Of a DNA stretch of 64,000 bases, positions 4,089 to 24,224 are shown piece after piece. The translations under genes and the position numbers were made by a program. Every line of letters starts with the position of its first letter. Positions within the stretch are counted from its first letter, which is position 1. Origin of the DNA: Pseudoalteromonas sp. (GTDB lineage: Bacteria; Pseudomonadota; Gammaproteobacteria; Enterobacterales; Alteromonadaceae); NCBI RefSeq assembly GCF_041629635.1, contig NZ_JBFKMX010000001.1:7863-71862 (forward strand), written 5' to 3'. Under the pieces are notes generated by a model. That model was not told where the DNA came from, did not search any database, and saw only the letters and a list, made by a program, of their open reading frames with translations.

Positions 4089-4107
4089 ACGCTCTTTTGA
4101 GCGTTTT
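4087..4107 (+). terminator. Intrinsic terminator after the first EPS operon
   Basis: AAACGCTC-TTTT-GAGCGTTT perfect hairpin followed by T-tract, directly at the stop codon. Confidence 0.75.
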
Positions 4108-4199
4108 ATTCGATTATCGAGTTTCATAAAGCTTTAAAACCTGCCTCTAATTTCTCACCCCGCGTCTACGAGAGAGATCTTTAATTATCGTTTGAGAAT

Positions 4200-4215
4200 T
4201 GGCGCTAATATTGCG
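4200..4215 (+). promoter_or_regulatory. sigma54 -24/-12 promoter
   Basis: TGGCGC-TAATA-TTGCG, exact GG-N10-GC spacing, intergenic. Confidence 0.65.
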
Positions 4216-4283
4216 ACATAACCTACAGAGTAGTGAAAAAATAGTGTTTTTCACATTTTGAAAACAAAATTCGTTAAATTGCG

Positions 4284-4296
4284 TTGCATTTTGCAA
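4284..4296. promoter_or_regulatory. LuxO-type enhancer box
   Basis: Perfect TTGCA-TTT-TGCAA palindrome, intergenic, just before the RBS of the gene at 4310. Confidence 0.7.
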
Positions 4297-4309
4297 AATA
4301 GGAAGGGTA

Positions 4310-5797
4310 ATGGTTTTTACGATAGCGCAAATTAAAAAGCTTATTTACCTCGCTTTGTATACTATTTACGAGCGCTGGCAGCTAATTATATTGCCAATTA
4401 TTATTGTGCCCATTGCTGTTATCGGGATTGCACTTAACAGTCCAAAGCAATTCACCAACCACGCGACCATTTTGATAGAAGAATCTGCTCTTCTGAACCC
4501 ATTTTTAGATGAATTAGAATTCTCCTTTGAGTTGTCTTCACGGATGGATGCATTACGTACCTTAGTACTGAGCCGAAAAAATTTAACAGGAGTTGTGAAA
4601 GAAGTTGGGCTGGTAAAAAACCTTGATAATCAGCTTGAAGTTGAAAAAATGCAAGAAAAACTGGCCAATGCAATCTCTATTTCTCTGGTGGGAGATGAGC
4701 TAGTGCGAATTCACTTCAAGTGGGAAAAACGTGAAGAAATGAAACCTGTGCTTGAAGCAATGGTAGAAAAGTTTATTGAACGTTTACTCGCACCAACAAA
4801 AACATCTCTCGATACCTCAGAAATCTTTTTGAAAAATCAGCTGGAAGAAATGCGCGTCCAGCTAGAGGTAGCCGAAGATAAGCTGGCAAAATTCAAACGC
4901 GATAATCGTGCTGCACTGCCCGAATTATTGAACATCAATCAAGACACTTTGGTTCGCTTAGAACAAAAAAAACAGCAAAAATTAGTGGATTTAAGTGGTG
5001 CAAAAGCACGATTAGCTACATTGAAAAAACAACTTGCCAAAGCGAATCCCGTAAAAGGCCGTTTAGTGGACAGTATCATGCGAATTGAAGCGGATATTGC
5101 GCTATTACTTACCCGATATACTGACCAACACAGTAAAGTCCAAGCAAAACTGCGTGAATTAGAAACTTTAAAAATACGCAAGCAAGAAATAGAAACCCAG
5201 TCGCAACCATTTGAAGAAGCGGACCTTGATTCATTGTGGCAAATTGCAAATAGTTTACCGTTGGGTGCCAACGCCAAAGACAGTGCGCTGTTAGTATCAC
5301 AACTTATTACTTTAGAAGAAGCTGAAAATCAAGTTGCACAACTGAAAGAAGAACTTGAGATGTTGTCTGAGCAGCTTTCTGAGATTTCCACTCATCTATC
5401 AAGTTCCAGTGAAATTGATAAAACATTGCGTCAATTACAACGAGATTATCAAGTAAAACAAACACTGTATTCCGAAATGCTCGAACGATATGAGATGTCG
5501 AAAGTAACGGGTCAATTGGTTCGGTACGAAGGGCCTGACAAAGTAAAAATAATTGAGCGCGCTTACAGCCCAACTACACCAATCAATCAGTCACTTGTTA
5601 TTAATATATTTTTGGGGGTAGTACTCGGGCTTTTTAGCGCTGCGGCACTGACATTTATCGCCATGATCACCGACTTTAGATTACGTGATAAAAGCATGAT
5701 TGAAGCAATATCAGGAAAACGCGTCTTAACAACATTACCTATTGTGAAAGATGTATCTCAGTACATCACATCGACTCATCGGAGGCACTATGAATAA
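4310..5797 (+). CDS. Polysaccharide chain-length determinant, GumC/Wzz-Wzc type (SypO-like)
   Basis: N- and C-terminal TM helices flanking a long periplasmic coiled coil; KIIERAYSPTTP before the last TM. Confidence 0.9.
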   Translation: MVFTIAQIKKLIYLALYTIYERWQLIILPIIIVPIAVIGIALNSPKQFTNHATILIEESALLNPFLDELEFSFELSSRMDALRTLVLSRKNLTGVVKEVGLVKNLDNQLEVEKMQEKLANAISISLVGDELVRIHFKWEKREEMKPVLEAMVEKFIERLLAPTKTSLDTSEIFLKNQLEEMRVQLEVAEDKLAKFKRDNRAALPELLNINQDTLVRLEQKKQQKLVDLSGAKARLATLKKQLAKANPVKGRLVDSIMRIEADIALLLTRYTDQHSKVQAKLRELETLKIRKQEIETQSQPFEEADLDSLWQIANSLPLGANAKDSALLVSQLITLEEAENQVAQLKEELEMLSEQLSEISTHLSSSSEIDKTLRQLQRDYQVKQTLYSEMLERYEMSKVTGQLVRYEGPDKVKIIERAYSPTTPINQSLVINIFLGVVLGLFSAAALTFIAMITDFRLRDKSMIEAISGKRVLTTLPIVKDVSQYITSTHRRHYE

Positions 5798-6866
5798 CAT
5801 CATTCAGTTGATACAACACCCGTACATTGGTGGACTTGAAAAAATGGCATTTGGCTTATGTTGCAGTGAATTAAAAGATTCAAATATGTTCTTAGTTGCC
5901 TTAGAAGGGACAAAAAAAGATGCCATCGCAGATTGGAACGAACTTGCACAGCTTGATAACTTTTACTGTTTGAATAAGGCGCAGGGGATGGACTGGCAAA
6001 CGGTTAAAAATCTAGTGGAGATGATTGATAATTATCGGATTAAAGTAATCCACAGTCATCATATAGGCCCGATGTTGTATGCAAGTCTTGTAAAAAGAAT
6101 GCGCCCTGAAGTACAGCATATCCATACCCTGCATGATGCTTGGTATTTGACTGATTTTAAATATCGTATGTTCACCAAACTGATCGATAAATTTTCACCG
6201 ATCACGATTGTGGCTGACGCCGAGGCAGTCGCTGATGTTGCGAAATCCAAAGCTAATGTGGTGTCTGATTATATTGTGCATAATGGTATTGATACAGATT
6301 ATTTCAAACCGTCATCACGTTATTCGGCGCGTTTAAAGCTAGGTTTACCAAGCGATAACATCATTATAGGTTGTGCTGCGCGCATTGAAAAAGGCAAAGG
6401 TCATAAAGCCATGCTGCGAGCTTTGAATGCTTTGCCTGCAACAGTCCATATGGCATTTGCTGGAGATGGCAGTCTGTTAGCAGATCTTAAAGAGTATGCT
6501 TTATACATTGGCGTTTCAGATAGGGTTCATTGGTTAGGGTGTGTTCATGATATGCCAATTTTTTATTCTGCAATTGATGTGTTTTGTTTGTATTCAGAGC
6601 GTGAGGGGTTGCCGTTATCTATTTTAGAGGCAATGGCATGTAATCGGCCAATTGTCGCCAGTGATGTTGGTGGTATTTCTGAGGTGGTAAACGACAAATT
6701 GGGTTTTGTGCTTCCAATAGAAAATGAGCATCTTTTAGCTCCAAGTTTATTAGCAGCACTAAAGTTGAACAATGGTATGGATATCCGCCAATATGCACTT
6801 GCACAAGCGACGTTGAAAGTAATGGCTCAGGATTACAACAAAATATACCAAACTATCTTAGTGTGA
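5790..6866 (+). CDS. GT4 glycosyltransferase (SypP-like)
   Basis: GGLEKM, HNGIDTDYF, ARIEKGKGH and EGLPLSILEAMAC motifs; start moved to ATG 5790 behind GGAGG at 5781. Confidence 0.9.
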   Translation: MNNIIQLIQHPYIGGLEKMAFGLCCSELKDSNMFLVALEGTKKDAIADWNELAQLDNFYCLNKAQGMDWQTVKNLVEMIDNYRIKVIHSHHIGPMLYASLVKRMRPEVQHIHTLHDAWYLTDFKYRMFTKLIDKFSPITIVADAEAVADVAKSKANVVSDYIVHNGIDTDYFKPSSRYSARLKLGLPSDNIIIGCAARIEKGKGHKAMLRALNALPATVHMAFAGDGSLLADLKEYALYIGVSDRVHWLGCVHDMPIFYSAIDVFCLYSEREGLPLSILEAMACNRPIVASDVGGISEVVNDKLGFVLPIENEHLLAPSLLAALKLNNGMDIRQYALAQATLKVMAQDYNKIYQTILV

Positions 6867-6876
6867 GGATGTGATT

Positions 6877-8670
6877 ATGCTTTGGTTTATTATTGCTGCT
6901 ATTGCCGTCATATTTATTTACCATCACATGGTATACCCATTATTACTGGCATATATTGCTGGTAAACAGCCTTCAACAGAGCGGGGCCTATACAAATTTG
7001 AGTCAAGTGAGATACCTTCAATTGGAATTTTTATCGCCGCTTACAATGAGGCTGATTTTATTGAAGAAAAGCTACATAATTTAGCGTCACAGTTGTATCC
7101 CAATGACAAGATAGGTATTCATATTTTTGGCGATGGTTGTACTGATAATACCGCTGAAATTGTAAAACGGGTGAGTAGACACTTGCACGCTAATTTTATT
7201 TATTGCACTTATGATGAAGTCCAAGTGAATGCGGGTAAAGTGAGTGCGCTTAACCACTTGATTTCGCACTATCGTAATGAATACGACATTATTGTTTTCA
7301 CCGATGTAAGTGCGTTAATGAGTGTAGATTGCTTGACACAAGTAGCACTATCAATGGAGAACAAACAGGTGATTGCAGTGTCGGGTAATTACTTACCCAA
7401 TTCGAGTGCACATCAAAGCTTAGATAAGTATTGGCATTATCAAAATGCTATCCGTAAGCTTGAGGGGAAACTTGGTGCTGTCAATGGATTTTCAGGTGCA
7501 ATGTTTGCGATCCGTGCCGAGGCAGTGACCCGACTTGCTGCAAAAACAATTAATGATGATTTTGTTCAAGTGGTGTCAGCCATCAGCAAATCTAACTGCG
7601 CATGTTTTAACGAAGCGATTTCAATAATTGAATGTGAGCCTGATAGTTCTCAGAAAGACTTTAAACGGCGCATCCGCATTGGTGCTGGAAACTGGCAGCA
7701 ACTCACTGCTATTTTTACTGCCGCAAAAGGATTTAGTAAAGCACAATGGTTTAGCTTTATTTCAAATAAAGTCTTGCGAGGTGTAATGCCAATACTTCTG
7801 CTTGTGGCTTTCAGCGCGCAATTATTTTTAGCTGTAACCGGTGATTTTATCGCGCAACTGGGGGTGTCGCTTGCGTTTATCATTCATTTTATCGGTGTTT
7901 TGAAGGCGCTCTTTAAATGGCGTATTCAGCTTGGGTTAATCGATTCTATAAATTACCTTGTTTCGAGCTACCTCGCTGCACTTATTGGTATTTTGACCTT
8001 GTCTCGCTATAACAAGCCATGGCGTCGAATTTCAGAATTAAAAGCACATAGAGCTTATATTACGATTTGTAAACGCGGTATCGACATTATTACTTCTGTG
8101 ATTGGTTTAGTATTATTTAGTCCAATTATGCTGCTTGCTGCGATTGCCATTAAATGTGACTCGAAAGGTGCAGTTATTTACAAGCAACTTCGTGTTGGCC
8201 AAATAAATGAAGATAGAACAGAGCTTATTTATGTTTATAAACTGCGTACCATGCGCATTGGTGCAGAAAAAGGGACAGGCGCTGTATGGGCAAAAGGGAA
8301 TGATCCGCGTGTTACACGTGTTGGACGTTTTTTAAGAAAAACCCGCATTGATGAATTGCCTCAATTTTGGAATGTACTCTCTGGTGATATGTCACTTATT
8401 GGGCCACGTCCAGAAAGGCCTAGCTTTTACAGTAAATTAGAGCGCGAAATTCCCTATTTTATCCAACGTACTTATGGAATAAAGCCTGGTATTTCAGGCC
8501 TTGCACAAGTTATGAATGGTTATGATGAAAGTGTTGAAGATGTAAGAAACAAAATTGCTTGGGATTATTCTTATGTACTTTCAATGACACGCTTTTCAAC
8601 CTGGCTTGTGATGGAGTTTGATATTGTGCTTAAGACGATTAAAGTCGTGGTGTTGGGCAAAGGGCAATAG
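6877..8670 (+). CDS. GT2 glycosyltransferase fused to a Bac_transf priming sugar transferase (SypQ+SypR-like)
   Basis: N-half AAYNEA, GKVSALN, FTDVSA, INDDF, RRIRIGAGNWQ; C-half KRGIDI, YKLRTM, DPRVTRVGRFLRKTRIDELPQFWNVLSGDMSLIGPRPERP. Confidence 0.9.
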   Translation: MLWFIIAAIAVIFIYHHMVYPLLLAYIAGKQPSTERGLYKFESSEIPSIGIFIAAYNEADFIEEKLHNLASQLYPNDKIGIHIFGDGCTDNTAEIVKRVSRHLHANFIYCTYDEVQVNAGKVSALNHLISHYRNEYDIIVFTDVSALMSVDCLTQVALSMENKQVIAVSGNYLPNSSAHQSLDKYWHYQNAIRKLEGKLGAVNGFSGAMFAIRAEAVTRLAAKTINDDFVQVVSAISKSNCACFNEAISIIECEPDSSQKDFKRRIRIGAGNWQQLTAIFTAAKGFSKAQWFSFISNKVLRGVMPILLLVAFSAQLFLAVTGDFIAQLGVSLAFIIHFIGVLKALFKWRIQLGLIDSINYLVSSYLAALIGILTLSRYNKPWRRISELKAHRAYITICKRGIDIITSVIGLVLFSPIMLLAAIAIKCDSKGAVIYKQLRVGQINEDRTELIYVYKLRTMRIGAEKGTGAVWAKGNDPRVTRVGRFLRKTRIDELPQFWNVLSGDMSLIGPRPERPSFYSKLEREIPYFIQRTYGIKPGISGLAQVMNGYDESVEDVRNKIAWDYSYVLSMTRFSTWLVMEFDIVLKTIKVVVLGKGQ

Positions 8671-8672
8671 CA

Positions 8673-8716
8673 TTGCAAAATGCAACAAGTAAATAAACTT
8701 CTGTTGCATTTTGCTA
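8673..8716. promoter_or_regulatory. Tandem LuxO-type enhancer boxes
   Basis: Perfect TTGCA-AAA-TGCAA (8673-8685) and TTGCA-TTT-TGCTA (8704-8716), centres 31 bp apart (about 3 helical turns). Confidence 0.75.
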
Positions 8717-8767
8717 TAATTCTTATCAGTTAACTTGTAACTAATTGAAATATTAATATATTAATTT

Positions 8768-8783
8768 TGGCATTGTATTTGGT
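8768..8783 (+). promoter_or_regulatory. Putative sigma54 promoter with variant -12
   Basis: TGGCAT-TGTAT-TTGGT: consensus -24, correct spacing, GG instead of GC at -12; downstream of the tandem boxes and 35 bp before ATG 8818. Confidence 0.55.
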
Positions 8784-8817
8784 TGTAATTAATCATAGTC
8801 ACAAAGAGGATTAGATT

Positions 8818-9144
8818 ATGAACAACCAACTACCAACAAAAGAACAAGACAACACACTAACAATTGAACTTCCTCACGATTTTTCAGGCTTGAATGTCGA
8901 CAAATATCGCGAACATTTTGAGTGTTTCGCGGCAACGCAACACGATGCTATTGTACTTGATTTTAGTAACACGGAGTTTATTGATTCATCGGGTATTGGC
9001 GCCATGGTTTTTTTGTTTAAACGAATTGAAAAGCGTGGCATCTCAATGATGGTAATGGACGTTACGGGTCAACCTGAAAAGTTAATGAAGCTGTTACGTG
9101 TCGACTCTACTATTCCATTTATTACTTCTGCTCCACTCATTTAA
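8818..9144 (+). CDS. STAS-domain anti-sigma-factor antagonist (SypA-like)
   Basis: IVLDFSNTEFIDSSGIGAMV with the phosphorylatable Ser; GAGGA RBS. Confidence 0.9.
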   Translation: MNNQLPTKEQDNTLTIELPHDFSGLNVDKYREHFECFAATQHDAIVLDFSNTEFIDSSGIGAMVFLFKRIEKRGISMMVMDVTGQPEKLMKLLRVDSTIPFITSAPLI

Positions 9145-9157
9145 TAGAGGCCGTACT

Positions 9158-10000: not shown

Positions 10001-10005
10001 TGATT

Positions 10006-12093: not shown

Positions 12094-12800
12094 AAATTAT
12101 TCCCAAACAGTATCAAGAGTTAGAAGTTATTTTTGATGCAATTAATCGAGAAAATGCACGCTGTATTGCGTTTGCTTCTCCATATGGACACGCTGGGGCT
12201 ACCTCTCTCGCTGTAAGTGTGGCAAGGCGCTTAAGTGGTCGTAATGAACGAGTGTTAGTAATCGATTTAAATACTTTCCATCCAATGTCTGACAAGGACT
12301 TGATAAGCATGCCAAACTCTTTGGCAAAATGGTCTTTTGTTGATATTAGTTGCCAATTGAATGCGCAAGTGATTGATAATTTTTACTTCTTAAGTATTAC
12401 TCAGCTACAAGATTTGACCTTAGTACGTGAAAAGGATGTATTCAACACAGCCATTTTGATGCTAAAACAAGAGTTTGATTATATTTTGTTTGATATGTCA
12501 CCGATTTGTAAAAAGCATCATGCGAATTTTCCTCTGCATTTAATAATTTCGGTTACAGATTTACTGTTATTAGATATTTCGCTTGGTAAAACGACACAAG
12601 ACACGTTAGATGCTGTAATTAATGAACTAGAGCAAGTAAATTGTAAACGTTATGAAATCGTAGTAAGTCAGATCTTTATGCCTCCCTTAGGTGATTGTTT
12701 AATTAAGAGTATCAATAGGCGATGTTATAAACTACCAAAACTGAGGCAATTTTTAACTAATTTAGTTAACAAACAGCATTGGTTATTCACTGGAGTATAA
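12090..12800 (+). CDS. BY-kinase/ParA-like P-loop protein (SypD-like), Walker A lacks Lys
   Basis: ASPYGHAGATSLA, VLVIDLN, FDYILFDMSP. Confidence 0.7.
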   Translation: MKIIPKQYQELEVIFDAINRENARCIAFASPYGHAGATSLAVSVARRLSGRNERVLVIDLNTFHPMSDKDLISMPNSLAKWSFVDISCQLNAQVIDNFYFLSITQLQDLTLVREKDVFNTAILMLKQEFDYILFDMSPICKKHHANFPLHLIISVTDLLLLDISLGKTTQDTLDAVINELEQVNCKRYEIVVSQIFMPPLGDCLIKSINRRCYKLPKLRQFLTNLVNKQHWLFTGV

Positions 12801-12802
12801 CT

Positions 12803-14272
12803 ATGAATGTATTGTTTTATCGTCGTTTCAGTTTAATCTGGTCAACTTTACATTCGGTGCGAGAAACGCTATTGACGCTGTTGGCTAAACTCGATGTTGA
12901 AAGTGAAGAGATTGATAACACAGGCTTAGTAGTGACGGAATATCTGACGAATTTAATACGTCATAGTGAAGGAGAAGATCAGGCTGTGACGTTAGTGATT
13001 GGTCGTACTTTAAATGCTATCAGGATTGAACTTGTTGACCCAACAGACTACTTTCATCCTACATTGTCTCGGTCGCATGCTACAGATATTGTTGATGGTG
13101 AGCTGCGTGAGGGAGGAATGGGACTTGCCTTGATAGCTCATTACTTTCCTGACTTTAATTATGTTTCTGAAGAAGGAAAAAATCATTTTAGTTTTGCGTT
13201 GTCACTTAAAAAAATTAAAAATCGAATTGTAATAATTGATGATGAAAATGCTAGTTTACAGCTGATCAAAGCGTTTTTAGAAAATGAATATGAATGTCAT
13301 GCATTCACAGATGAGCATGATGCTTATCAGTATTTAATGTCACACAATGTTGACCTTTTACTTATTGATATGAACTTAAATGCAATGTTAGCTGATGAAT
13401 TTATATCTAACATTAAACAATTAGAGCATCTAAATAATATAGGTATAGTCGTGATTTCGGGTGATAGCAGCCGAGAAACTATGCTCAAAGCACATTTATG
13501 CGGAGTAGATGATTATTTGATAAAACCTGTTAAAAAACAGCAACTTGAATTAGTGTGTGAACGGGTTAAAAGTCGCTGTGTTTCACGTTCGGTTAGTAAT
13601 GCTTGCACGGGTAATTCGGGTAAAAATACGGTGATAAATTGCGGCCAATTTAAAGTTATCCCGTATGGGAATGTGGTAATAGGGAGCGGTGGTGATGTGT
13701 TAATTCATCACACTACGGATAACAAGAACATTGTTTTCTTTGGTGATGTGATGGGACATGGAGCAACGGCAAATCGTGTTGCATTACAACTCAAGGGGTT
13801 TATAAAAGGGTTATTACAGTCCTCTTACCATTCGCTTGACGTATTTGTTAACTTTTTTGCGACGAGCATAGTTCAACAAGACTTTATGCAGCAAAGCCTC
13901 GTTACCTTTATTGCATTGGAAATATCGGGGGATCAGATCCGACTTGTTAATGCAGGACACCCCCTTCCGATCGTAATATCCAAAATACAAGGAGTGCGAA
14001 GTGTGTGCACATCCCAGCCTTTAGTAGGGCTTGTTTCAAACTATGTATATCAAAGTGAATTGATCCCCTTCTTGACAGGAGAATCATTGCTCTTAGCGAC
14101 AGATGGTTTCTTTGAAAACCATGAAAATTATGATGAACTAACACAATTAGTGAATGCGGTATACAGTACTTCAAGTCTTGAAAACTTATCTGACACAAAT
14201 GACTTTTGGTACAAAAGTTTACCTAGATTATCAAAAGAAATTGACGATTCGTCTCTCCTGGTACTTAATTAG
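12803..14272 (+). CDS. RsbW-like Ser kinase / receiver / PP2C phosphatase protein (SypE-like)
   Basis: TEYLTNLIRH and EGGMGL (HATPase); IIDD..LLLID..IKP (REC); GGD, GDVMGHG, TDG, DD (PP2C); start at ATG 12803 behind GGAG. Confidence 0.85.
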   Translation: MNVLFYRRFSLIWSTLHSVRETLLTLLAKLDVESEEIDNTGLVVTEYLTNLIRHSEGEDQAVTLVIGRTLNAIRIELVDPTDYFHPTLSRSHATDIVDGELREGGMGLALIAHYFPDFNYVSEEGKNHFSFALSLKKIKNRIVIIDDENASLQLIKAFLENEYECHAFTDEHDAYQYLMSHNVDLLLIDMNLNAMLADEFISNIKQLEHLNNIGIVVISGDSSRETMLKAHLCGVDDYLIKPVKKQQLELVCERVKSRCVSRSVSNACTGNSGKNTVINCGQFKVIPYGNVVIGSGGDVLIHHTTDNKNIVFFGDVMGHGATANRVALQLKGFIKGLLQSSYHSLDVFVNFFATSIVQQDFMQQSLVTFIALEISGDQIRLVNAGHPLPIVISKIQGVRSVCTSQPLVGLVSNYVYQSELIPFLTGESLLLATDGFFENHENYDELTQLVNAVYSTSSLENLSDTNDFWYKSLPRLSKEIDDSSLLVLN

Positions 14273-14307
14273 AAAGGGATTTGTTAAATGTGATCAGGAG
14301 GTTGCCT

Positions 14308-15729
14308 ATGCCAAATAAGATTTTAATTGTTGAAGATACAGAATCACTTGCGCTTTTGTACCAGTCTTACCTGATCCCAACAGGCATGCACTCGGATATT
14401 GCGTTTACAGGGCAAGAAGCGCTTAATTATTTGGAAAAGAATAAACCCGATTTGATCATGCTGGATGTGATGCTACCGGACATGAGTGGCATGGATATTC
14501 TAGCACAGCTTTCCGTTAATGACCGTCCCAAAGTGGTGGTATTAACAGCTCATGCTAGTAAAGAAATGGCTGTTGATGCGATTCATTATGGTGCCGCAGA
14601 CTTTATTGAAAAACCCGTTGATGCAGAGCGCTTTCGTATTACTGTTAACAATGCTTTGAAACTCAATTCACTAAGTAAAACGGTAGAAAAATATCAATCT
14701 CGTTATGAAAATGGTCGCTTTTGTGAACTAATTGGCACTTCGGCACCGATGCAAACGGTATATCAAATCATTAGCAATTCAGCAAAAAGTAAAGCCACTG
14801 TGTTTATTACTGGTGAAAGTGGAACAGGTAAAGAGCTTTGTGCACGCGCAATTCACCAATGTAGTGACCGCAGTAAACACCCCTTTATAGCGATTAATTG
14901 TGCTGCAATCCCAAAAGATCTGATTGAAAGTGAAATATTTGGTCATGTAAAAGGCGCATTTACAGGAGCGACTAACAACCGTGAAGGTGCGGCAGGGATG
15001 GCTGATGGTGGTACGCTATTTCTTGATGAACTGTGTGAAATGGATTTAAACCTACAAAGTAAACTATTGCGCTTTATACAAACGGGTTGTTTCCAAAAAG
15101 TAGGTAGCGAACAACTGCAACAAGTGAATGTACGTTTTGTATGTGCGACTAACCGCGATCCATGGCAGGAGGTACAAGCTGGGCGCTTTAGAGAAGATTT
15201 ATATTATCGCTTATATGTTATACCTGTGCAGTTGCCTCCGTTGCGCCAACGGGGTCGGGATGTCATTCAAATTGCAGAAGCGTTATTTGCACGTATTGCA
15301 AAAGAAGAAGGGCAAGCGTTTGATGGATTAAGTGATGATGCAAAACAACACCTAATGTCTTATAGTTGGCCTGGAAATGTGCGTCAACTGGAAAATATGA
15401 TTCGTAATACGGTGGTGTTGAATAATACCGCATGGATAGAAAAACAGATGTTTCCCCCTTTTCCACAAAGTCACGTGTCGCAAGAACCCTTTATGGATGA
15501 GAGCATGAGTGTGTCTGAGCAACTATCTACGCCTAGTTTTGAAACCAATAATTTACTTAGAAGCTCAGATATAGAGCCTTTATGGCTAGTTGAAAAACGC
15601 TACATTGAAAAGGCAATAGCAGCGTGTAACGACAATGTACCAAAAGCAGCAGCATTATTAGATATCAGTCCATCTACAATCTACCGCAAAATGAAAACAT
15701 GGGAGCAAATGTCTGCACAGCTCTATTAG
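14308..15729 (+). CDS. luxO: sigma54-dependent response regulator, LuxO-like
   Basis: REC, GESGTGKE, GAFTGA, HTH; NCAAIPKDLIESE, DELCEMDLNLQSKLLRFIQTG, ATNRDPWQEVQAGRFREDLYYRLYVIP and ISPSTIYRK closely follow Vibrio LuxO as recalled; AGGAGG RBS. Confidence 0.8.
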   Translation: MPNKILIVEDTESLALLYQSYLIPTGMHSDIAFTGQEALNYLEKNKPDLIMLDVMLPDMSGMDILAQLSVNDRPKVVVLTAHASKEMAVDAIHYGAADFIEKPVDAERFRITVNNALKLNSLSKTVEKYQSRYENGRFCELIGTSAPMQTVYQIISNSAKSKATVFITGESGTGKELCARAIHQCSDRSKHPFIAINCAAIPKDLIESEIFGHVKGAFTGATNNREGAAGMADGGTLFLDELCEMDLNLQSKLLRFIQTGCFQKVGSEQLQQVNVRFVCATNRDPWQEVQAGRFREDLYYRLYVIPVQLPPLRQRGRDVIQIAEALFARIAKEEGQAFDGLSDDAKQHLMSYSWPGNVRQLENMIRNTVVLNNTAWIEKQMFPPFPQSHVSQEPFMDESMSVSEQLSTPSFETNNLLRSSDIEPLWLVEKRYIEKAIAACNDNVPKAAALLDISPSTIYRKMKTWEQMSAQLY

Positions 15730-16730
15730 TTTAAATAAAGTTTAATTAACTGAATATATTGTGATTTTCCTGCATAGAATTGATGAAGTTGGCTGGTTGC
15801 ATTTTTGACCAGATAATTACGCTCTTGCTGGCTCATTAAAAGCGCCTCTCTTAATTTACTCACCAATGCTTGGTGCGATTGGTCGTCCGTTAATAGTCCA
15901 GTGTGGTTGTTTATGATAACAGAATCGATAGCACCTACTGCATTTGCGATACATAACACTTTATTGTCAATAGCTTCAAGCAAGACCATAGGTAACCCTT
16001 CCTCTCTAGAACAAATTACTAATATATCAACGTGCTGCCATAATTTTTGAGTCGATTTATGACCATGAAAAAGCGTATTGTTCGAAGCTTTTTTTTGTAA
16101 CTCAGCGATCATAGGTCCATCGCCATAAAGGTGAAATTTAATGTTCTCTTGATGTTGAAAATGAGTGGCCAATTTAATAAAACGTTCGGGTGCTTTTTCA
16201 TATGCTAAACGTCCAACAAAAGCGATATTCAGTTGTTTTTCGGGCTCTTTTGGATGTGGGTTTTTAGGCAAGATAAAATTAGCAATAAACTGGCCATTTT
16301 TAACCTTACTTTTGAGTTGATTTGCCACGACTAAGTTTTTTGAAAAGCCGCTGGTTATTTGGTCGAGCCAATTATAGAGCCTTATTCTGCCCGAACCTTT
16401 TTCGCCAGCATGATAGGTGGAAATACAAGTGTGACCAGTTATTTTACATGTAAGTCTACCAATAATACCTGCTTTGTAACCATGGGTATGTAATACATAG
16501 TTGTCACTATGTTTGAGGAAATGAAAAAGATCTAATGCACTACCGCCTAAACATTGATAAGGGCAGTTAAGCTCTGTCAATAAATCATAGAGCTGATGAT
16601 TGAGATGATCTTGATAAAAAAGAACACTTGTAGGCACATGTTTCGATTGCATCAATTTAACTAATTCAATAATGTGCGATTCAATGCCGCCAAATAGGCT
16701 AGAATCTAGAAAGAGTACAAGATTTCGCAT
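15726..16730 (-). CDS. GT4 glycosyltransferase (SypH-like)
   Basis: FGGIESH, HTHGYKAG, FVGRLAYEKAP, SREEGLPMVLLEA; start moved to ATG 16730 behind AGGAG. Confidence 0.9.
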   Translation of the reverse strand: MRNLVLFLDSSLFGGIESHIIELVKLMQSKHVPTSVLFYQDHLNHQLYDLLTELNCPYQCLGGSALDLFHFLKHSDNYVLHTHGYKAGIIGRLTCKITGHTCISTYHAGEKGSGRIRLYNWLDQITSGFSKNLVVANQLKSKVKNGQFIANFILPKNPHPKEPEKQLNIAFVGRLAYEKAPERFIKLATHFQHQENIKFHLYGDGPMIAELQKKASNNTLFHGHKSTQKLWQHVDILVICSREEGLPMVLLEAIDNKVLCIANAVGAIDSVIINNHTGLLTDDQSHQALVSKLREALLMSQQERNYLVKNATSQLHQFYAGKSQYIQLIKLYLN

Positions 16731-16755
16731 ATTTATCTCCTCTAAAAGGAACCCT

Positions 16756-17073
16756 ATGTTTAACCAAACAACCATAAAACAACTGGAAGCCGATGTTGGC
16801 CAAGAAGTACTGATCAAACTTTTTGCCGTTTTTGCTCAAGAAGCGACAAAACTAACCGAGCAACTTATGGCTTGCACATCTCTTGATGAAGAATGTGTAC
16901 GTTTAAGCCATAGCCTTAAAAGCTGCGCTCGTTCCTATGGTGCGGATCAGCTAAGTGCTCTTGCTGAAACCCTTGAAAATCTTGCAAAAAATAACGATGC
17001 AAGCTTCTTTAATGAACGTGCGCTTTTAGGTGGCATACTGGATGCGACCATGTCTGCAATGCCAATGCTTTAA
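16756..17073 (+). CDS. luxU: Stand-alone Hpt phosphotransfer protein, LuxU-like
   Basis: SHSLKSCARSYGADQL Hpt motif; N-terminus FNQTTIKQLEADVG resembles Vibrio LuxU; AAGGA RBS before ATG 16756. Confidence 0.75.
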   Translation: MFNQTTIKQLEADVGQEVLIKLFAVFAQEATKLTEQLMACTSLDEECVRLSHSLKSCARSYGADQLSALAETLENLAKNNDASFFNERALLGGILDATMSAMPML

Positions 17074-17960
17074 TGCACTTTTGCATTTAGGCTTAAAGAG
17101 TGCTCATTAGTGTTGGGTAACCACTGTTCAATAATATGTTTAAGCTGAGATTTATTATGCTTTCCGATTGATTGTTCTTTTTCTATGGCGCGTAAATCCA
17201 TGGCCTCAAATGCATCTGGAGTGAGACATACATCAAAAAACTTGTAGCCTAAGATATGCATAGCCTGGTCAAGTTGCTCTGTGGCAGCAAGTTGGTCAAC
17301 AGGGCTATGTTCAGGCGTTAAGTTTTCAATAAAGATGCGACAACCAGTGGTATTACATAATGCTTTTTGAATATCCCATAACATTAAGGGCGGCATTACA
17401 CTGGTTAATAAACTACCAGGACCTAATAAGATTAAATCAGCACAGTTTATTGCCTCAATGGCTTGCTGGTTAGCACTGACCTGTTTGGATAAACGCATGT
17501 TATTAGGAAAATGACTAAGTGTGTCAATATTGCATTCACCAAAAACCTCCTCTCCTGTAGAGGTTGTAGCAACTAAATCAACAGGCGTATTTGTCATTGG
17601 CAAAATAGTATGTTCAACCCCTAACATGCTAGAGAAAATTTTAACTGCATCGTTTGCGTTGTGTGTAATTTGGCACAGTGCGCACAGTAGAATATTGCCA
17701 AAACTGTGACCCTTCAAATCATTGTCTAATTCAAAGCGTTGTTCGGACAAGATTGATAACATCTGGTCTTGGCAGGCTAACGCACTAACGCAACGGCGAA
17801 TATCACCTAAAGCAATTTGACTTGGGTCTTGACGCAAACGTCCGGTGCTGCCGCCGTTGTCAGTTGTAGTTACGATTGCTGTCAGTGCACAAGGTATGTT
17901 TTTTAAAGCGCTTAACACTTGCGATAGACCATGTCCCCCGCCAATACACACAATATTCAT
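17070..17960 (-). CDS. yvcK: YvcK/GlmR (CofD-like) UDP-binding protein
   Basis: IGGGHGL, TTTDNGGSTGRLR, GDIRRC, GHSFGNI, LGPGSLLTS; start moved to ATG 17960. Confidence 0.9.
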   Translation of the reverse strand: MNIVCIGGGHGLSQVLSALKNIPCALTAIVTTTDNGGSTGRLRQDPSQIALGDIRRCVSALACQDQMLSILSEQRFELDNDLKGHSFGNILLCALCQITHNANDAVKIFSSMLGVEHTILPMTNTPVDLVATTSTGEEVFGECNIDTLSHFPNNMRLSKQVSANQQAIEAINCADLILLGPGSLLTSVMPPLMLWDIQKALCNTTGCRIFIENLTPEHSPVDQLAATEQLDQAMHILGYKFFDVCLTPDAFEAMDLRAIEKEQSIGKHNKSQLKHIIEQWLPNTNEHSLSLNAKVH

Positions 17961-17994
17961 ATTTCGCCCCCCCATCGGTGTGTATTGAAAAGGA

Positions 17995-18010
17995 TTCAAA
18001 TTGTGTACCA
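17995..18010 (-). promoter_or_regulatory. Putative sigma54 promoter of yvcK with variant -12
   Basis: Minus strand TGGTAC-ACAAT-TTGAA, GG-N10-GA. Confidence 0.5.
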
Positions 18011-18051
18011 AGATATAAAACGCGAAAACTAGGGAAAACATTAATTTTTAT

Positions 18052-18064
18052 TTGCATTTTGCAA
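18052..18064. promoter_or_regulatory. LuxO-type enhancer box between yvcK and the hybrid kinase
   Basis: Perfect TTGCA-TTT-TGCAA; reverse complement shares the 16-mer GCATTGCAAAATGCAA with 8670-8685. Confidence 0.75.
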
Positions 18065-18130
18065 TGCAGCTTGCGGGGTCATTCGCTAAACTTAATTTTA
18101 ACCTTCGACCAAAACTCACAAAGAGGTGTC

Positions 18131-20140
18131 ATGGGAAAACTTAGTGCCAATGCTACATTGCAATTACTAGAAGATCTTATTAGCAGTAAAAATGCATTTG
18201 AATTACTGATTAAATTGCAAATAGGCCTTCAGCCTATTGTCAGATTTTCAGAGATCTTGATTTTGACCCAAGATCATTCGCAACTGTGTGCTGTGGCAAG
18301 CACTTACGAACCCTTATCGGGGGCGTGTTTATTTAATAAAGAAGAGCTTTTTGAAAGCGGTTTTGAAGAACAGATATTAGTGGTCAATAACACTGAGTTA
18401 CCAGCAGATTGGCAATTACCAAACACAGGTAATAAAGCGGCTTTAATTCCCATTAATTTTGCTGGGCGGAAAGGTATATATATATTATTTTTGACGGAAG
18501 AGATGGTTGATGATTCACAGGTAAAAAGTAATCTAATGGCTAGTCTTATCGTTTTTCGTCTAGCTTTTTATCAATTAGATCAACAACATCAAACTTCCCA
18601 AATGCTACTCGACCGAACTTTTGCGCTAACGCAGAGCCAGCAACGGTTTCAAGCTTATGCCGAACTTGCTTCTGATTGGTTTTGGGAAACGGATGAAAGC
18701 ATGTGCTTTACCTATCTTTCTTTTACTGAACAAAGTAAACCCAGTAACTTTGAGAACTTTTTATACAAAAGTCCGTTAAATATTCGCAGTGACAGCGAAA
18801 GTACTCAATGTAAAAAGTGGGAACACTTTTTACATCTTGTGCGTAAACATTTAGACATTATTGATTTTGAGTTTGAGGCAATAAACAACCAAGGTCACAC
18901 GGTTTGGATATCAATCAGTGGTAAAGCAAAATTCAATGTGGACAATAGCTTTGCGGGGTATTTGGGCATCGCTAAAGACATCAGTTTCTCTAAGCAGCGT
19001 GAATCAGATTTAAAAATGGCTAAAGAGAAAGCTGAAAGTGCTAACGCTGCAAAATCACATTTTCTTGCTGTTATGTCTCATGAAATTCGTACGCCGATGA
19101 ATGCAATTCTGGGTATATTAGAGTTACTTGAAGACACAGACCCGAATGATAAACAACGCGAGTTAATTGAATTTATGCGTGGCAGTGCCCAGTTGTTGCA
19201 GGGGGTTATCAGTGATACATTGGACTTTGCAAAAATTGAATCAGGCACCCTTGCATTAGAAAGTAGTAATATTAATTTTCATAAGCTAATCAAGAATTTA
19301 GTTCAGCAATTCGAAACCCAAGCGATAAAAAAAGGCATCCATTTTAATGCTATTGTGGGTAATGGTGTACCCGAGCAGATTAATACCGATGGTGTTCGTT
19401 TGTCTCAGGTCTTACTTAATTTGTTGGGAAATGCATTCAAATTTACCTTAACGGGAGAGGTTTGCCTTGCGGTTAATCGCAGTGATACCGAATTGTTGAT
19501 ATCGGTAAAGGACAGCGGCATAGGTATCGAGCAAAGCCAAGTAGATAGTTTGTTTGAACCGTTTTCACAGTTGCATGATAAACAAATTGGTCGACAGCAA
19601 GGAGTTGGTCTTGGTTTAAGTATCACTAAACGCTTGCTTGAATTGATGAATGGGAAAATAGAATGCCACAGTGAAATTGGTGTGGGCACTGAATTTTCTG
19701 TTGCTATTCCATTGCAGTTGGAAGTAACCGATGAAAACCCAGAAGGGTTGGAATCTAAAAATATCAGTACACCGAGTTATCATATTTTGGTCGCTGAAGA
19801 TAACCCAGCAAACCAATTTATCATTAAAGCTATTTTGGAAAAACGCAACCATACAGTGTCACTTGCGGATAATGGTGAGCAAGCTGTTGCCGCAGTTAAA
19901 AAATCGCAATTTGATTTGGTGCTAATGGATATGGTGATGCCTGTAATGGATGGTGTAGTAGCGGCACGCACGATAAGAACAGAACTTGGCAGAATGGCAC
20001 CGCCTATCATCGCGTTGACTGCAAATGCTGGGTTAGCTGACAAAACCAAATGTTTAAATGCGGGCATGTTGGATGTACTGACAAAACCATTAAACAGCGC
20101 TTTGTTAGACGAAAAAATAAGGACCCTTGTCGGGACGTAG
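18131..20140 (+). CDS. Soluble hybrid sensor histidine kinase (GAF-like, PAS, HisKA, HATPase, REC)
   Basis: ELASDWFWETD PAS, MSHEIRTPMN H-box, N/G boxes, AEDNPANQ..LMDMVMP receiver; no TM helix and no Hpt; start moved to ATG 18131 behind GAGG. Confidence 0.9.
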   Translation: MGKLSANATLQLLEDLISSKNAFELLIKLQIGLQPIVRFSEILILTQDHSQLCAVASTYEPLSGACLFNKEELFESGFEEQILVVNNTELPADWQLPNTGNKAALIPINFAGRKGIYILFLTEEMVDDSQVKSNLMASLIVFRLAFYQLDQQHQTSQMLLDRTFALTQSQQRFQAYAELASDWFWETDESMCFTYLSFTEQSKPSNFENFLYKSPLNIRSDSESTQCKKWEHFLHLVRKHLDIIDFEFEAINNQGHTVWISISGKAKFNVDNSFAGYLGIAKDISFSKQRESDLKMAKEKAESANAAKSHFLAVMSHEIRTPMNAILGILELLEDTDPNDKQRELIEFMRGSAQLLQGVISDTLDFAKIESGTLALESSNINFHKLIKNLVQQFETQAIKKGIHFNAIVGNGVPEQINTDGVRLSQVLLNLLGNAFKFTLTGEVCLAVNRSDTELLISVKDSGIGIEQSQVDSLFEPFSQLHDKQIGRQQGVGLGLSITKRLLELMNGKIECHSEIGVGTEFSVAIPLQLEVTDENPEGLESKNISTPSYHILVAEDNPANQFIIKAILEKRNHTVSLADNGEQAVAAVKKSQFDLVLMDMVMPVMDGVVAARTIRTELGRMAPPIIALTANAGLADKTKCLNAGMLDVLTKPLNSALLDEKIRTLVGT

Positions 20141-20238
20141 CATGCACATTAATTAGCTCTGTTAGTGATTGCGTTTAACCTAGCAGAGTAGATCTAAAGC
20201 AAAATCATTTGAACACCCATACCTTAATTTTCATCTAG

Positions 20239-20412
20239 TTATGGTTCAGCATATTCTTCCTTAAGTTGTTGTAAAATGCGTTCTTGCTGTTTAAAGCTAA
20301 AGATCACTTTACGGCGGTAATCGATAGAACGATAGAACAGTTCTAAATCTATAAAGGGTCTCATAGCTTTTAATTTCTGGTCGATTGAAAACTGCTGTTG
20401 AGCGTTACGCAT
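20239..20412 (-). CDS. Unannotated 57-aa protein MRNAQQQFSIDQKLKAMRPFIDLELFYRSIDYRRKVIFSFKQQERILQQLKEEYAEP
   Basis: Translated by hand; ATG 20412, GGAG RBS 7 nt upstream, sigma54 promoter and enhancer boxes upstream; below the 60-aa ORF-track cutoff. Confidence 0.7.
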   Translation of the reverse strand: MRNAQQQFSIDQKLKAMRPFIDLELFYRSIDYRRKVIFSFKQQERILQQLKEEYAEP

Positions 20413-20446
20413 ATCATATCTCCAAATTTGCTCTTCAATTCTCTAA

Positions 20447-20462
20447 AGCAAAATATGACCCA
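20447..20462 (-). promoter_or_regulatory. sigma54 -24/-12 promoter of the 57-aa ORF
   Basis: Minus strand TGGGTC-ATATT-TTGCT, GG-N10-GC. Confidence 0.65.
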
Positions 20463-20512
20463 AATTTAACCTGTTGAATTTCTTTTACTAATATTTTCGT
20501 GAAGGGCTGTAA

Positions 20513-20537
20513 ATTGATTTTGCAATGCAAAATGCAA
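20513..20537. promoter_or_regulatory. Abutting pair of LuxO-type boxes
   Basis: ATTGA-TTT-TGCAA overlapping ATGCA-AAA-TGCAA by 1 nt; centre of the better box about 70 bp upstream of the -24 element. Confidence 0.65.
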
Positions 20538-24117: not shown

Positions 24118-24224
24118 TTTGTCCTCTTTTTAAGCATAATCAGGTTGATCAATTTAAAAAATAGTGTCACTTTTTAGTTAAGGCAATGTTTTTATAATAA
24201 ATAGCGAAATCGCACAGCTCGGGC

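What the first reader, a model, noticed from the sequence alone, without database searches (positions are those of the whole stretch)
4284..20537. Recurrent TTGCA-W3-TGCAA palindrome defines a local sigma54 regulon
Seen: three perfect copies (4284, 8673, 18052) and near copies (8704, 20525, 2018). All perfect copies are intergenic and each lies close to a -24/-12-like element. The 16-mer GCATTGCAAAATGCAA is shared by 8670-8685 and the reverse complement around 18052-18067. A rough i.i.d. estimate at 40% GC gives about 0.02 perfect copies expected in 64 kb. Known: TTGCA-W3-TGCAA is the reported LuxO box at qrr promoters, whereas SypG uses a TTCTCA-N3-TGxxx element. Inference: LuxO DNA specificity is kept but the targets are protein-coding EPS genes.
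Basis: partly seen in the sequence, partly recalled or inferred. Interest (0 to 1): 0.82.

Follow-up and report, generated by a model that had tools for sequence, protein, structure and literature searches.

The report
LuxO-type enhancer boxes controlling polysaccharide genes
A short DNA palindrome known from Vibrio quorum-sensing promoters recurs at every operon start of a biofilm-polysaccharide gene cluster in a Pseudoalteromonas genome, where it most likely is the docking site through which the cluster's own LuxO-like activator switches on sigma-54 promoters.

Summary
TTGCAWWWTGCAA occurs 3 times in the window (0.09 expected). It occurs 7 times in the 4.03-Mb genome, and 4 of those lie within 20 kb. 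The locus is a syp-like exopolysaccharide cluster of a Pseudoalteromonas. It encodes SypA/SypE-like partner-switch proteins, a LuxO/SypG-family sigma-54 activator, a LuxU-like Hpt protein, YvcK and a hybrid kinase.

Each conserved box lies 55-106 bp from a conserved -24/-12 promoter, on one face of the helix (10.5-bp phasing, R=0.82). Boxes, promoters and spacings are conserved in the 15 Pseudoalteromonas species examined and in Neiella. LuxO-type boxes also precede sypA in three other families. Genomes without the activator have only background copies.

Box 4284 lies about 83 bp downstream of its promoter, at a conserved, in-phase distance. This looks like a natural downstream enhancer.

The genome has no true LuxO and no Qrr. 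Vibrio SypG loci use TTCTCA-N3-TGAGAA instead.

Best reading: the boxes are the upstream activating sequences of the locus-encoded activator, which controls EPS operons, a 57-aa protein and a distant DUF4842 operon directly. Binding and rpoN dependence are inferred, not shown. I rate it a new variant of a known kind, of moderate interest.

The parts
4200..4215 (+). Sigma-54 promoter TGGCGCtaataTTGCG for the operon 4310-8670 (chain-length determinant, GT4, priming glycosyl-phosphotransferase).
   Evidence: GG/GC spacing. It is the only conserved block in an otherwise diverged spacer in 4 species. An equivalent promoter lies 80-92 bp upstream of the box in 7 more species.
4233..4254 (+). Conserved A-tract palindrome GTGAAAAA-N6-TTTTTCAC between the promoter and box B. 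It may be a bend element or a 5'-UTR hairpin.
   Evidence: Conserved in 4 species. RNA fold centroid is -10.6 kcal/mol, z = -1.7. The role is inferred.
4284..4296 (.). Box B, a perfect TTGCATTTTGCAA. It lies 83 bp (centre to centre) downstream of promoter 4200-4215 and 13 bp before the ATG at 4310.
   Evidence: The position and the -80 to -92 spacing are conserved across the genus. It has the same helical phase as the upstream boxes.
8673..8685 (.). Box C1, a perfect TTGCAAAATGCAA, 96 bp upstream of the sypA-like promoter.
8704..8716 (.). Box C2, TTGCATTTTGCTA (1 mismatch). It lies 31 bp from C1 and 65 bp upstream of the promoter.
   Evidence: The paired boxes 31-32 bp apart are conserved in most species. 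C1 and C2 could also pair as an RNA hairpin (-19.6 kcal/mol).
8768..8783 (+). Sigma-54-like promoter TGGCATtgtatTTGGT for sypA-like through the activator gene (8818-15729). Its -12 element is non-canonical (TTGG, not TTGC).
   Evidence: Conserved in 4 species. Orthologous sypA promoters in 11 more species read TGGCA[CT]-N5-TTG[ATG].
8818..9144 (+). SypA-like STAS protein.
   Evidence: Pfam STAS and TIGR00377.
12779..14272 (+). SypE-like regulator (HATPase_c_2 + REC + SpoIIE/PP2C).
14281..15729 (+). LuxO/SypG-family sigma-54 enhancer-binding response regulator, the presumed box-binding protein.
   Evidence: REC + Sigma54_activat + HTH_8, with GAFTGA and Walker A. It scores 667 bits on the LuxO model against a cut-off of 800. 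It is 55-56% identical to Vibrio LuxO and 46-48% to Vibrio SypG.
16672..17073 (+). LuxU-like Hpt phosphorelay protein.
   Evidence: Pfam Hpt, 37 bits. The best NCBIfam hit is LuxU at 48.5 bits, below the 140 cut-off.
17995..18010 (-). Sigma-54-like promoter TGGTACacaatTTGAA for yvcK-like (17960..17070) and the glycosyltransferase 16817..15726.
   Evidence: Conserved as TGGTACAYAAYTTGWA in 3 species. It lies 55 bp from box D. The -12 element lacks the C.
18052..18064 (.). Box D, a perfect TTGCATTTTGCAA, between yvcK-like (minus strand) and the hybrid kinase (plus strand).
18131..20140 (+). Soluble hybrid histidine kinase (HisKA, HATPase_c, REC, no Hpt). It is the likely input to the Hpt protein and the activator.
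   Evidence: No promoter could be assigned to it.
20447..20462 (-). Sigma-54 promoter TGGGTCatattTTGCT for a 57-aa protein gene.
   Evidence: Conserved in SSM20 and G4. It lies 76 bp from box E.
20525..20537 (.). Box E, ATGCAAAATGCAA (1 mismatch here, perfect in SSM20 and G4).
20239..20412 (-). Conserved 57-aa protein gene driven by box E and its promoter.
   Evidence: The amino-acid sequence is conserved in SSM20 and G4. No Pfam or NCBIfam family matches.

Best explanation
The TTGCA-W3-TGCAA palindromes are the upstream activating sequences (enhancers) of the LuxO/SypG-family response regulator encoded at 14281-15729.

Proposed mechanism (inferred): a phosphorelay runs from the hybrid kinase at 18131-20140, and perhaps from the neighbouring H-NOX-linked kinase, through the LuxU-like Hpt protein to the activator's receiver Asp. 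Dimers of the activator's Fis-type HTH bind the boxes. The AAA+ ring then contacts sigma-54 RNA polymerase held at -24/-12 promoters 55-106 bp away on the same face of the helix, and opens them.

The promoters controlled in this way would be:
- two divergent promoters just upstream of the window;
- the promoter at 4200, reached from a box placed downstream of it;
- the promoter at 8768, which drives sypA-like through the activator's own gene and so gives positive feedback;
- the promoter at 17995-18010 (minus strand), for yvcK and a glycosyltransferase;
- the promoter at 20447-20462 (minus strand), for the 57-aa protein;
- a DUF4842/lipoprotein operon on contig C5.

Shown here: motif rarity and clustering, conservation of boxes, promoters and spacings, helical phasing, co-occurrence with the activator, and presence of rpoN and an intact bEBP. 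Inferred: which protein binds, the direction of regulation, and the signalling input.
For: - Enrichment: 3 copies against 0.09 expected in the window. There are 7 in 4.03 Mb, 4 of them within 19.8 kb.
- Promoter association: 5 of 7 perfect copies lie 55-96 bp from a sigma-54-like element. Of 56 one-mismatch copies, only 2 are intergenic with a promoter firing away from the box, and both are in the locus. The chance rate is about 5% per site.
- Footprints: in 4 species with about 90% identical activators, the boxes and the -24/-12 elements are the conserved islands in diverged spacers. The same architecture holds in 11 further Pseudoalteromonas species with 61-73% identical activators and in Neiella at 52%. 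LuxO-type boxes also precede sypA in three other families.
- Relatives: in P1-9 all 4 genome copies lie on the locus contig. The figures are 4 of 7 in G4, 3 of 5 in SSM20 and 2 of 2 in N. marina.
- Genomes of the same family without the activator have 0-3 unclustered copies, equal to the control pattern.
- Phasing: signed box-promoter distances (55, 65, 76, 87, 96, 106; -80 to -92) share one phase at a 10.5-bp period, with R = 0.82.
- Components: the activator has REC, GAFTGA, Walker A and HTH_8. rpoN is present.
- Recognition helix: SPSTIYRK is identical to that of LuxO, whose S423, I425, Y426, R427 and K428 are needed for binding to the qrr4 promoter (PMC11407668).
- Positive control: Vibrio luxO loci show the same box 76-78 bp from the qrr1 promoter.
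- Precedent: V. fischeri SypG also activates through LuxO-type boxes at qrr1 (PMC10162802).
Against: - There is no binding, transcription-start or rpoN-dependence data.
- Three promoters (sypA-like, yvcK-like, C5) lack the canonical -12 C.
- Box B, and the box of the first Neiella intergenic region, lie downstream of their promoters. This is unusual for bEBPs and could instead mean a negative role.
- No promoter could be assigned to the kinase gene next to box D.
- The HTH also resembles that of Vibrio SypG, so sequence alone does not fix specificity.
- Some boxes sit inside longer hairpins that look like terminators.
- The distance statistics use related genomes and are not fully independent.
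Confidence: 0.8

Rival explanations
1. The palindromes act at the RNA level, as terminator or stabiliser hairpins at operon ends, and not as protein-binding DNA sites.
For: Box C1 starts 3 bp after a stop codon. C1 and C2 can pair into a -19.6 kcal/mol hairpin (z = -4.0). In G4 and P1-9 an extra box is the tip of AAAGCGTTGCA-N3-TGCAACGCTTT followed by Ts. Two Neiella boxes are tips of longer inverted repeats.
Against: Single boxes fold no better than shuffles (z = -0.2). The scan finds no terminator-like site at any box within the stretch scanned, 3900-9000, which covers boxes B, C1 and C2. Box A lies between promoters that fire away from it, and boxes D and E likewise lie upstream of the promoters assigned to them. 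The sequence itself is invariant (GCA-N3-TGC in 29 of 29 sites), with no compensatory changes. An RNA role does not explain the fixed, phased distance to -24/-12 elements. A dual role at some sites remains possible.
Confidence: 0.05
2. The boxes are bound by the activator, but those downstream of or overlapping transcription units (box B in the 5' UTR, box D next to the kinase gene) act negatively. They would work as a roadblock or operator, in the way LuxO represses its own promoter. On this reading the 4200 promoter would be activated in some other way.
For: Box B lies at about +64 from the predicted start and 13 bp before the ATG. In Neiella one box lies downstream of two facing promoters. 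From memory, LuxO autorepression through its own sites is known in Vibrio harveyi.
Against: No other conserved candidate enhancer exists for the 4200 promoter. The box-promoter distance is held at 80-92 bp across the genus, on the same helical face as the upstream boxes, which a roadblock would not need. From memory, natural 3' enhancers are known for Caulobacter FlbD.
Confidence: 0.12
3. A different transcription factor, not the locus-encoded activator, recognises the palindrome.
For: No binding data exist. The genome encodes at least a dozen other sigma-54 activators.
Against: The motif equals the site of the closest characterised homologue and clusters around this gene in every genome that has it. 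It stays at background in genomes that lack the gene.
Confidence: 0.05
4. The copies are chance occurrences in AT-rich intergenic DNA, or simply the TTGCA -12 elements of sigma-54 promoters.
For: TTGCA is also the -12 consensus. One candidate -24/-12 match (8662-8677) overlaps box C1.
Against: Shuffles give 0.09 expected. No GG lies at the right spacing before boxes B or D. The 8662 match loses its spacing in P1-9.
Confidence: 0.01

Closest known systems
LuxO upstream activating sequence at Vibrio qrr promoters (TTGCAWWWTGCAA; Lenz 2004 and Svenningsen 2008, as cited in PMC10162802)
   Same: The 13-bp motif is identical. The geometry is the same: the box lies 76-78 bp from the -24/-12 centre in two Vibrio control loci, against 55-106 bp here. 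The activator is a LuxO-like REC-AAA+-HTH_8 protein with an identical recognition helix, and LuxU-like Hpt and yvcK genes lie nearby.
   Different: The targets are protein-coding EPS operons and small or secreted proteins, not Qrr sRNAs. No Qrr was found in this genome or in 5 other non-Vibrio genomes, while the same search found 4 in each Vibrio control. The activator is below the LuxO family cut-off. There are 6-7 promoters in one locus.
SypG and the syp enhancer regulon of Vibrio fischeri (TTCTCANNNTGMDWN; Ray 2013, as cited in PMC10162802)
   Same: The activator gene lies inside a syp-like cluster after sypA-E. Several sigma-54 promoters with an enhancer palindrome sit at operon starts. 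SypA (STAS) and SypE-like partner-switch proteins are present. There is a regulon member outside the locus. In V. fischeri, the SypG-controlled bmp genes play this part (from memory).
   Different: The enhancer half-site is TTGCA, not TTCTCA. Vibrio syp control loci have TTCTCAtatTGAGAA and no LuxO boxes. The activator is only 46-48% identical to Vibrio SypG, less than to LuxO. There is a separate Hpt protein in place of SypF's Hpt domain.
SypG acting through LuxO boxes at qrr1 (PMC10162802)
   Same: That work shows genetically that a syp-cluster activator can use TTGCAWWWTGCAA.
   Different: There it is cross-talk at one sRNA promoter in a cell that has both paralogues. Here a single family member uses the box at all of its promoters.
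3' enhancers of Caulobacter FlbD (ftr elements) and experimentally relocated NtrC/NifA sites (from memory)
   Same: Box B, and one Neiella box, lie downstream of the sigma-54 promoter they most likely serve.
   Different: Here the downstream position, the roughly 82-bp distance and the helical phase are conserved across a genus, within a 5' UTR 13 bp from the start codon.

Membership tests
LuxO-Qrr quorum-sensing circuit | 13-bp UAS TTGCAWWWTGCAA next to a sigma-54 promoter | tested here: met
   Vibrio control loci.
LuxO-Qrr quorum-sensing circuit | Activator reaches the curated LuxO family score (NF041946, 800 bits) | tested here: not met
   666.7 bits. It is the only LuxO-like protein in the genome; the next hit scores 376 bits.
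LuxO-Qrr quorum-sensing circuit | Target promoters drive Qrr sRNAs | tested here: not met
   No Rfam family matches in the window. No Qrr in the genome. The same search finds 4 Qrr in each of 2 Vibrio genomes and none in 5 relatives. The genome is 90.5% complete.
LuxO-Qrr quorum-sensing circuit | LuxU phosphorelay partner encoded next to the activator | tested here: inconclusive
   An Hpt protein at 16672-17073 has LuxU as its best NCBIfam hit, but at 48.5 bits it is below the 140 cut-off. yvcK is adjacent, as in the Vibrio luxOU loci.
SypG / syp enhancer regulon | bEBP gene embedded in a syp-type cluster with sypA (STAS), sypB, sypC, sypD and a sypE-like gene | tested here: met
SypG / syp enhancer regulon | Enhancer of the type TTCTCANNNTGMDWN | tested here: not met
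   The boxes here are TTGCA-W3-TGCAA. The TTCTCAtatTGAGAA type is found only in the Vibrio syp control loci.
SypG / syp enhancer regulon | Orthology of the activator to Vibrio SypG | tested here: inconclusive
   46-48% identity to SypG against 55-56% to LuxO. The tree backbone is unresolved and the SypG clade sits on a long branch.
Bacterial enhancer-binding protein / sigma-54 regulon (general) | Intact bEBP (Walker A, GAFTGA, HTH) and rpoN in the genome | tested here: met
Bacterial enhancer-binding protein / sigma-54 regulon (general) | Conserved GG-N10-GC promoters at fixed, helically phased distance from the sites | tested here: met
   Three promoters have TTG[GAT] in place of TTGC at -12.
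Bacterial enhancer-binding protein / sigma-54 regulon (general) | Physical binding of the activator to the sites, with rpoN-dependent transcription | not testable with these tools

The most novel reading that the evidence does not exclude
Outside the Vibrionaceae, a single LuxO/SypG-type activator, together with a LuxU-like Hpt protein and yvcK, is embedded in syp-like polysaccharide clusters and drives them directly through LuxO-type boxes. This may be the ancestral state. The Vibrio luxO-luxU-yvcK block would then be a remnant of such a cluster, re-targeted to Qrr sRNAs with its DNA specificity unchanged, while the copy left in the syp locus (SypG) drifted to TTCTCA-N3-TGAGAA. In addition, this activator family would routinely work from an in-phase enhancer placed downstream of the promoter, inside the 5' UTR.
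Probability: 0.35. Interest if true: 0.65.

Novelty: new variant of a known kind. Interest (0 to 1): 0.5.

Why it matters
The finding gives a concrete and testable regulon map for a biofilm-polysaccharide cluster. That cluster is present in about 30% of sampled Pseudoalteromonas species (24 of 81) and in several other marine gammaproteobacterial families.

It links the best-studied quorum-sensing activator site (the LuxO box) to direct control of structural genes in bacteria that lack Qrr sRNAs. This bears on how the Vibrio LuxO-Qrr circuit and the SypG paralogue arose. It may also explain why V. fischeri SypG still recognises LuxO boxes (PMC10162802).

The conserved, helically phased downstream enhacer position at the chain-length-determinant operon is a clean natural case for studying how enhancer-binding proteins reach sigma-54 polymerase from within a transcribed leader.

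Tried and rejected
- Boxes as -12 elements of sigma-54 promoters: rejected. No GG lies at the right spacing before 4284 or 18052, and the 8662-8677 match is not conserved.
- Single boxes as RNA hairpins: they fold no better than shuffles.
- Rfam scan of the window for a box-linked sRNA: nothing found. The transcript under box E encodes a conserved 57-aa protein, not an sRNA.
- Assigning the activator to the LuxO or the SypG clade by phylogeny: the backbone is unresolved.
- HTH comparison to discriminate LuxO-type from SypG-type specificity: not decisive. The recognition helix is nearly the same in all three, and only the first helix differs (P-K/R against L-S/N).
- Sigma-70 or sigma-54 promoter for the kinase gene at 18131: none convincing, judged by eye from the sequence; the scan covered only 3900-9000.
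- Literature search for a described Pseudoalteromonas syp-like or LuxO-like regulon: none found in the library. Ray 2013 itself is not held, so its motif is quoted through PMC10162802.
- Near-copies 2018 and 5237: they lie inside ORFs and are not conserved, so I treat them as chance.
- Perfect copy C22:25764 lies inside an ORF with no promoter nearby. C158:4859 has a canonical TGGCACatcccCTGCT 158 bp away, but I did not check its conservation.
Full report
**Observation.** The pattern TTGCAWWWTGCAA occurs three times in the window, at 4284, 8673 and 18052. Dinucleotide-preserving shuffles expect 0.09, and none of 100 shuffles reaches three. With one mismatch, further copies appear at 2018, 5237, 8704 and 20525. 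All three perfect copies are intergenic. In the whole 4.03-Mb assembly (39% GC) there are only 7 perfect copies. Four of them lie within 19.8 kb on contig C1, and one of these (C1:6111) lies 1.75 kb before the window.

**Context.** The activator is 88-90% identical to those of Pseudoalteromonas sp. SSM20, G4 and P1-9, so the organism is a Pseudoalteromonas. The region is a syp-like exopolysaccharide cluster. Its genes are:
- glycosyltransferases, a flippase-like protein, an O-antigen-ligase-like protein and an acetyltransferase;
- a chain-length determinant (4310-5797) and a priming glycosyl-phosphotransferase (6871-8670);
- a SypA-like STAS protein (8818), an OmpA-like protein, a polysaccharide export protein and a SypD-like ATPase;
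- a SypE-like HATPase_c_2-REC-PP2C protein (12779-14272);
- a sigma-54 response regulator (14281-15729);
- on the opposite strand, a glycosyltransferase and a YvcK/CofD-like gene;
- a small Hpt protein (16672-17073) and a soluble hybrid kinase (18131-20140).

The activator has the receiver Asp, Walker A, GAFTGA and a Fis-type HTH. rpoN is present.

**Promoters and footprints.** I aligned the intergenic regions of four Pseudoalteromonas genomes. The boxes and adjacent GG-N10-(G)C elements are the conserved islands in otherwise diverged DNA.
- Upstream of the window, box A lies between divergent promoters CGGCACatactTTGCG (minus strand) and CGGCATaaagaTTGCG (plus strand).
- Before the sypA-like gene, boxes C1 (8673) and C2 (8704), 31 bp apart, precede TGGCATtgtatTTGGT (8768-8783).
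- Box D (18052) precedes TGGTACacaatTTGAA (17995-18010, minus strand), which faces yvcK. The true yvcK start is 17960.
- Box E (20525) precedes TGGGTCatattTTGCT (20447-20462, minus strand) and a conserved 57-aa protein gene.
- Box B (4284) is different. The only conserved promoter, TGGCGCtaataTTGCG (4200-4215), lies upstream of it, just after a terminator-like hairpin at 4087-4106 that follows the preceding gene. Box B therefore sits in the 5' UTR, 13 bp before the start codon, behind a conserved A-tract palindrome at 4233-4254.

**Genome-wide specificity.** Five of the 7 perfect copies lie 55-96 bp (centre to centre) from a sigma-54-like element. Among 56 one-mismatch copies, only two are intergenic with a promoter that fires away from the box, and both are in this locus. 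Chance would give about 5% per site. The fifth copy (C5:53202) precedes TGGCTCagttcTTGAA and an operon for a lipoprotein and a secreted DUF4842 protein. Box, promoter and genes are conserved in SSM20 and G4.

In relatives the motif is just as rare and just as concentrated. On the locus contig there are 4 of 4 genome copies in P1-9, 4 of 7 in G4, 3 of 5 in SSM20 and 2 of 2 in Neiella marina. Seven genomes of the same family that lack the activator carry 0-3 scattered copies, no more than a control pattern gives.

**Breadth and geometry.** About 30% of sampled Pseudoalteromonas species carry an orthologue (24 of 81 at 61% identity or more). In 11 of them that I examined (61-73% identical activators; other proteins 30-65% identical), the same architecture recurs:
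- box A with promoters 56-66 bp away;
- paired boxes before sypA at 55-74 and 84-106 bp;
- box B 26-30 bp before the chain-length-determinant start, with its promoter 80-92 bp upstream of the box.

The distances fall into classes about one helical turn apart (55, 65, 76, 87, 96, 106). Taken as signed distances modulo 10.5 bp, they share one phase (R = 0.82, and 10.5 is the best of the periods tried). The downstream box B values (-80 to -92) fall on the same phase as the upstream boxes. These genomes are related, so the statistic is indicative only. The distinct distance classes do, however, imply repeated indels of whole helical turns.

Neiella shows a further variant. A perfect box lies between two canonical promoters that face each other, so it is downstream of both.

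**Which regulator?**
- The activator scores 667 bits on the NCBIfam LuxO model (cut-off 800) and is the genome's only LuxO-like protein.
- No Qrr is found in this genome or in five other non-Vibrio genomes. The same search finds four Qrr in each of two Vibrio genomes.
- Across the order, Vibrio genomes have two family members. One is LuxO (above 850 bits), with LuxU, yvcK and a LuxO box 76-78 bp from the qrr1 promoter. The other is SypG (about 600 bits), inside syp, with TTCTCAtatTGAGAA before sypA and no LuxO boxes.
- Other families have one member (about 650-680 bits). In several of the loci examined it lies inside a syp-like cluster, with T[TC]GCA-N3-TGCAA before the sypA promoter.
- The window protein is 55-56% identical to Vibrio LuxO and 46-48% to Vibrio SypG. 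The tree does not resolve its position.
- Its recognition helix (SPSTIYRK) is identical to that of LuxO, where these residues are needed for binding the qrr4 promoter (PMC11407668). SypG differs mainly in the first HTH helix.
- V. fischeri SypG is known to activate qrr1 through the LuxO boxes (PMC10162802).

**Mechanism proposed.** When phosphorylated through the kinase and Hpt relay, the activator binds the boxes as the enhancer for sigma-54 polymerase at six or seven promoters. These include the operon that contains its own gene, which would give positive feedback. At the chain-length-determinant operon it acts from a downstream, in-phase site, perhaps helped by the A-tract element. Binding, signal input and the sign of regulation are all inferred.

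**Rivals.**
- An RNA-hairpin or terminator role cannot explain the invariant sequence, the positions of boxes A, D and E upstream of their assigned promoters, or the phased promoter distance. Some boxes may still double as terminator tips: the extra box in G4 and P1-9, two Neiella boxes and the C1-C2 pair.
- A negative (roadblock) role for box B is not excluded.
- Another binding protein, or chance, is unlikely.

**Novelty.** The components are known: the LuxO box, the sigma-54 regulon of a syp cluster, and SypG's use of LuxO boxes. Four things are new:
- the LuxO-type box is the enhancer of syp-like clusters outside the Vibrionaceae;
- this happens in bacteria with a single LuxO/SypG-family protein and no Qrr;
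- a LuxU-like protein and yvcK sit in the same locus;
- there is a conserved downstream enhancer.

I found no description of this in the paper library. The eLife study limited its comparison to the Vibrionaceae.

**Limits.** There is no experimental evidence. The assembly is 90.5% complete.

Noticed in passing
contig C1:6054-6190 (window -1808 to -1672, outside the window): A fourth perfect box (TTGCATAATGCAA, C1:6111) lies between divergent conserved sigma-54 promoters. These drive a GT2 glycosyltransferase plus a single-domain response regulator (minus strand) and a five-gene GT/flippase/ligase operon (plus strand). The regulon therefore starts before the window.
   Followed up: yes
contig C5:51257-53214 (outside the window): This is an extra-locus regulon member. 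A perfect box and TGGCTCagttcTTGAA precede a 127-aa lipoprotein and a 489-aa secreted DUF4842 protein. The arrangement is conserved with its box in SSM20 and G4. The proteins may be matrix proteins.
   Followed up: partly
window 4200-4310: The enhancer box lies downstream of its sigma-54 promoter at a genus-wide conserved distance of 80-92 bp, in helical phase with the upstream boxes. An A-tract palindrome (4233-4254) lies between them.
   Followed up: yes
L093/L095 (Neiella marina and N. litorisoli), region before the O-antigen-ligase-like gene: Two canonical sigma-54 promoters (CGGCACtgtaaTTGCT on the plus strand, TGGCACagcttCTGCA on the minus strand) face each other across one perfect box. 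Each would transcribe through the box and through the other promoter.
   Followed up: partly
window 8673-8716; G4 and P1-9 extra box; Neiella boxes N2 and N3: Several boxes are the tips of longer inverted repeats directly after a stop codon, for example AAAGCGTTGCAaatTGCAACGCTTTTT. C1 and C2 can pair (-19.6 kcal/mol). The enhancer palindromes may therefore double as terminators of the preceding operon.
   Followed up: partly
window 8768-8783 and 17995-18010; C5:53134: The sypA-like, yvcK-like and DUF4842 promoters consistently have TTG[GAT] in place of TTGC at -12, also in 11 other species. The other promoters of the regulon are canonical. This suggests two promoter classes with different basal or activated behaviour.
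   Followed up: partly
window 16672-17073 (+) against 15726-16817 (-): The LuxU-like Hpt gene overlaps the 3' end of the convergent glycosyltransferase gene by about 146 bp. It lies between two minus-strand genes of one apparent operon. The arrangement is conserved in relatives.
   Followed up: partly
window 20921-21972 (-): Two adjacent ORFs match the N- and C-terminal parts of an IS481-family transposase. This is probably a disrupted insertion sequence at the edge of the locus. The equivalent stretch in SSM20 is different.
   Followed up: no
window 22071-25517: An H-NOX (HNOB) protein and an adjacent histidine kinase (minus strand) face a REC-HD-GYP-type protein, right next to the syp-like locus. 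In Vibrio, H-NOX-linked kinases feed LuxU/LuxO or the Syp relay, so nitric oxide may be an input here.
   Followed up: partly
G4 and P1-9 loci (L089-L092): These two species carry two extra genes (678 aa and about 145 aa) inserted between the 369-aa glycosyltransferase and the chain-length determinant. The insertion has its own box and sigma-54 promoter, so the regulon grows by adding box-promoter cassettes.
   Followed up: partly
L117 / L121 (SSM20 C4:501914, G4 C124:22264): SSM20 and G4 share a further box site with an AGGCACgttgtTTGCT promoter about 65 bp away. It has no perfect counterpart in this genome's assembly.
   Followed up: no
contig C158:4859-5729 (outside the window): A perfect box lies 158 bp before a canonical TGGCACatcccCTGCT promoter and a 208-aa coiled-coil protein gene. 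It is a possible additional target, but I did not check its conservation.
   Followed up: no
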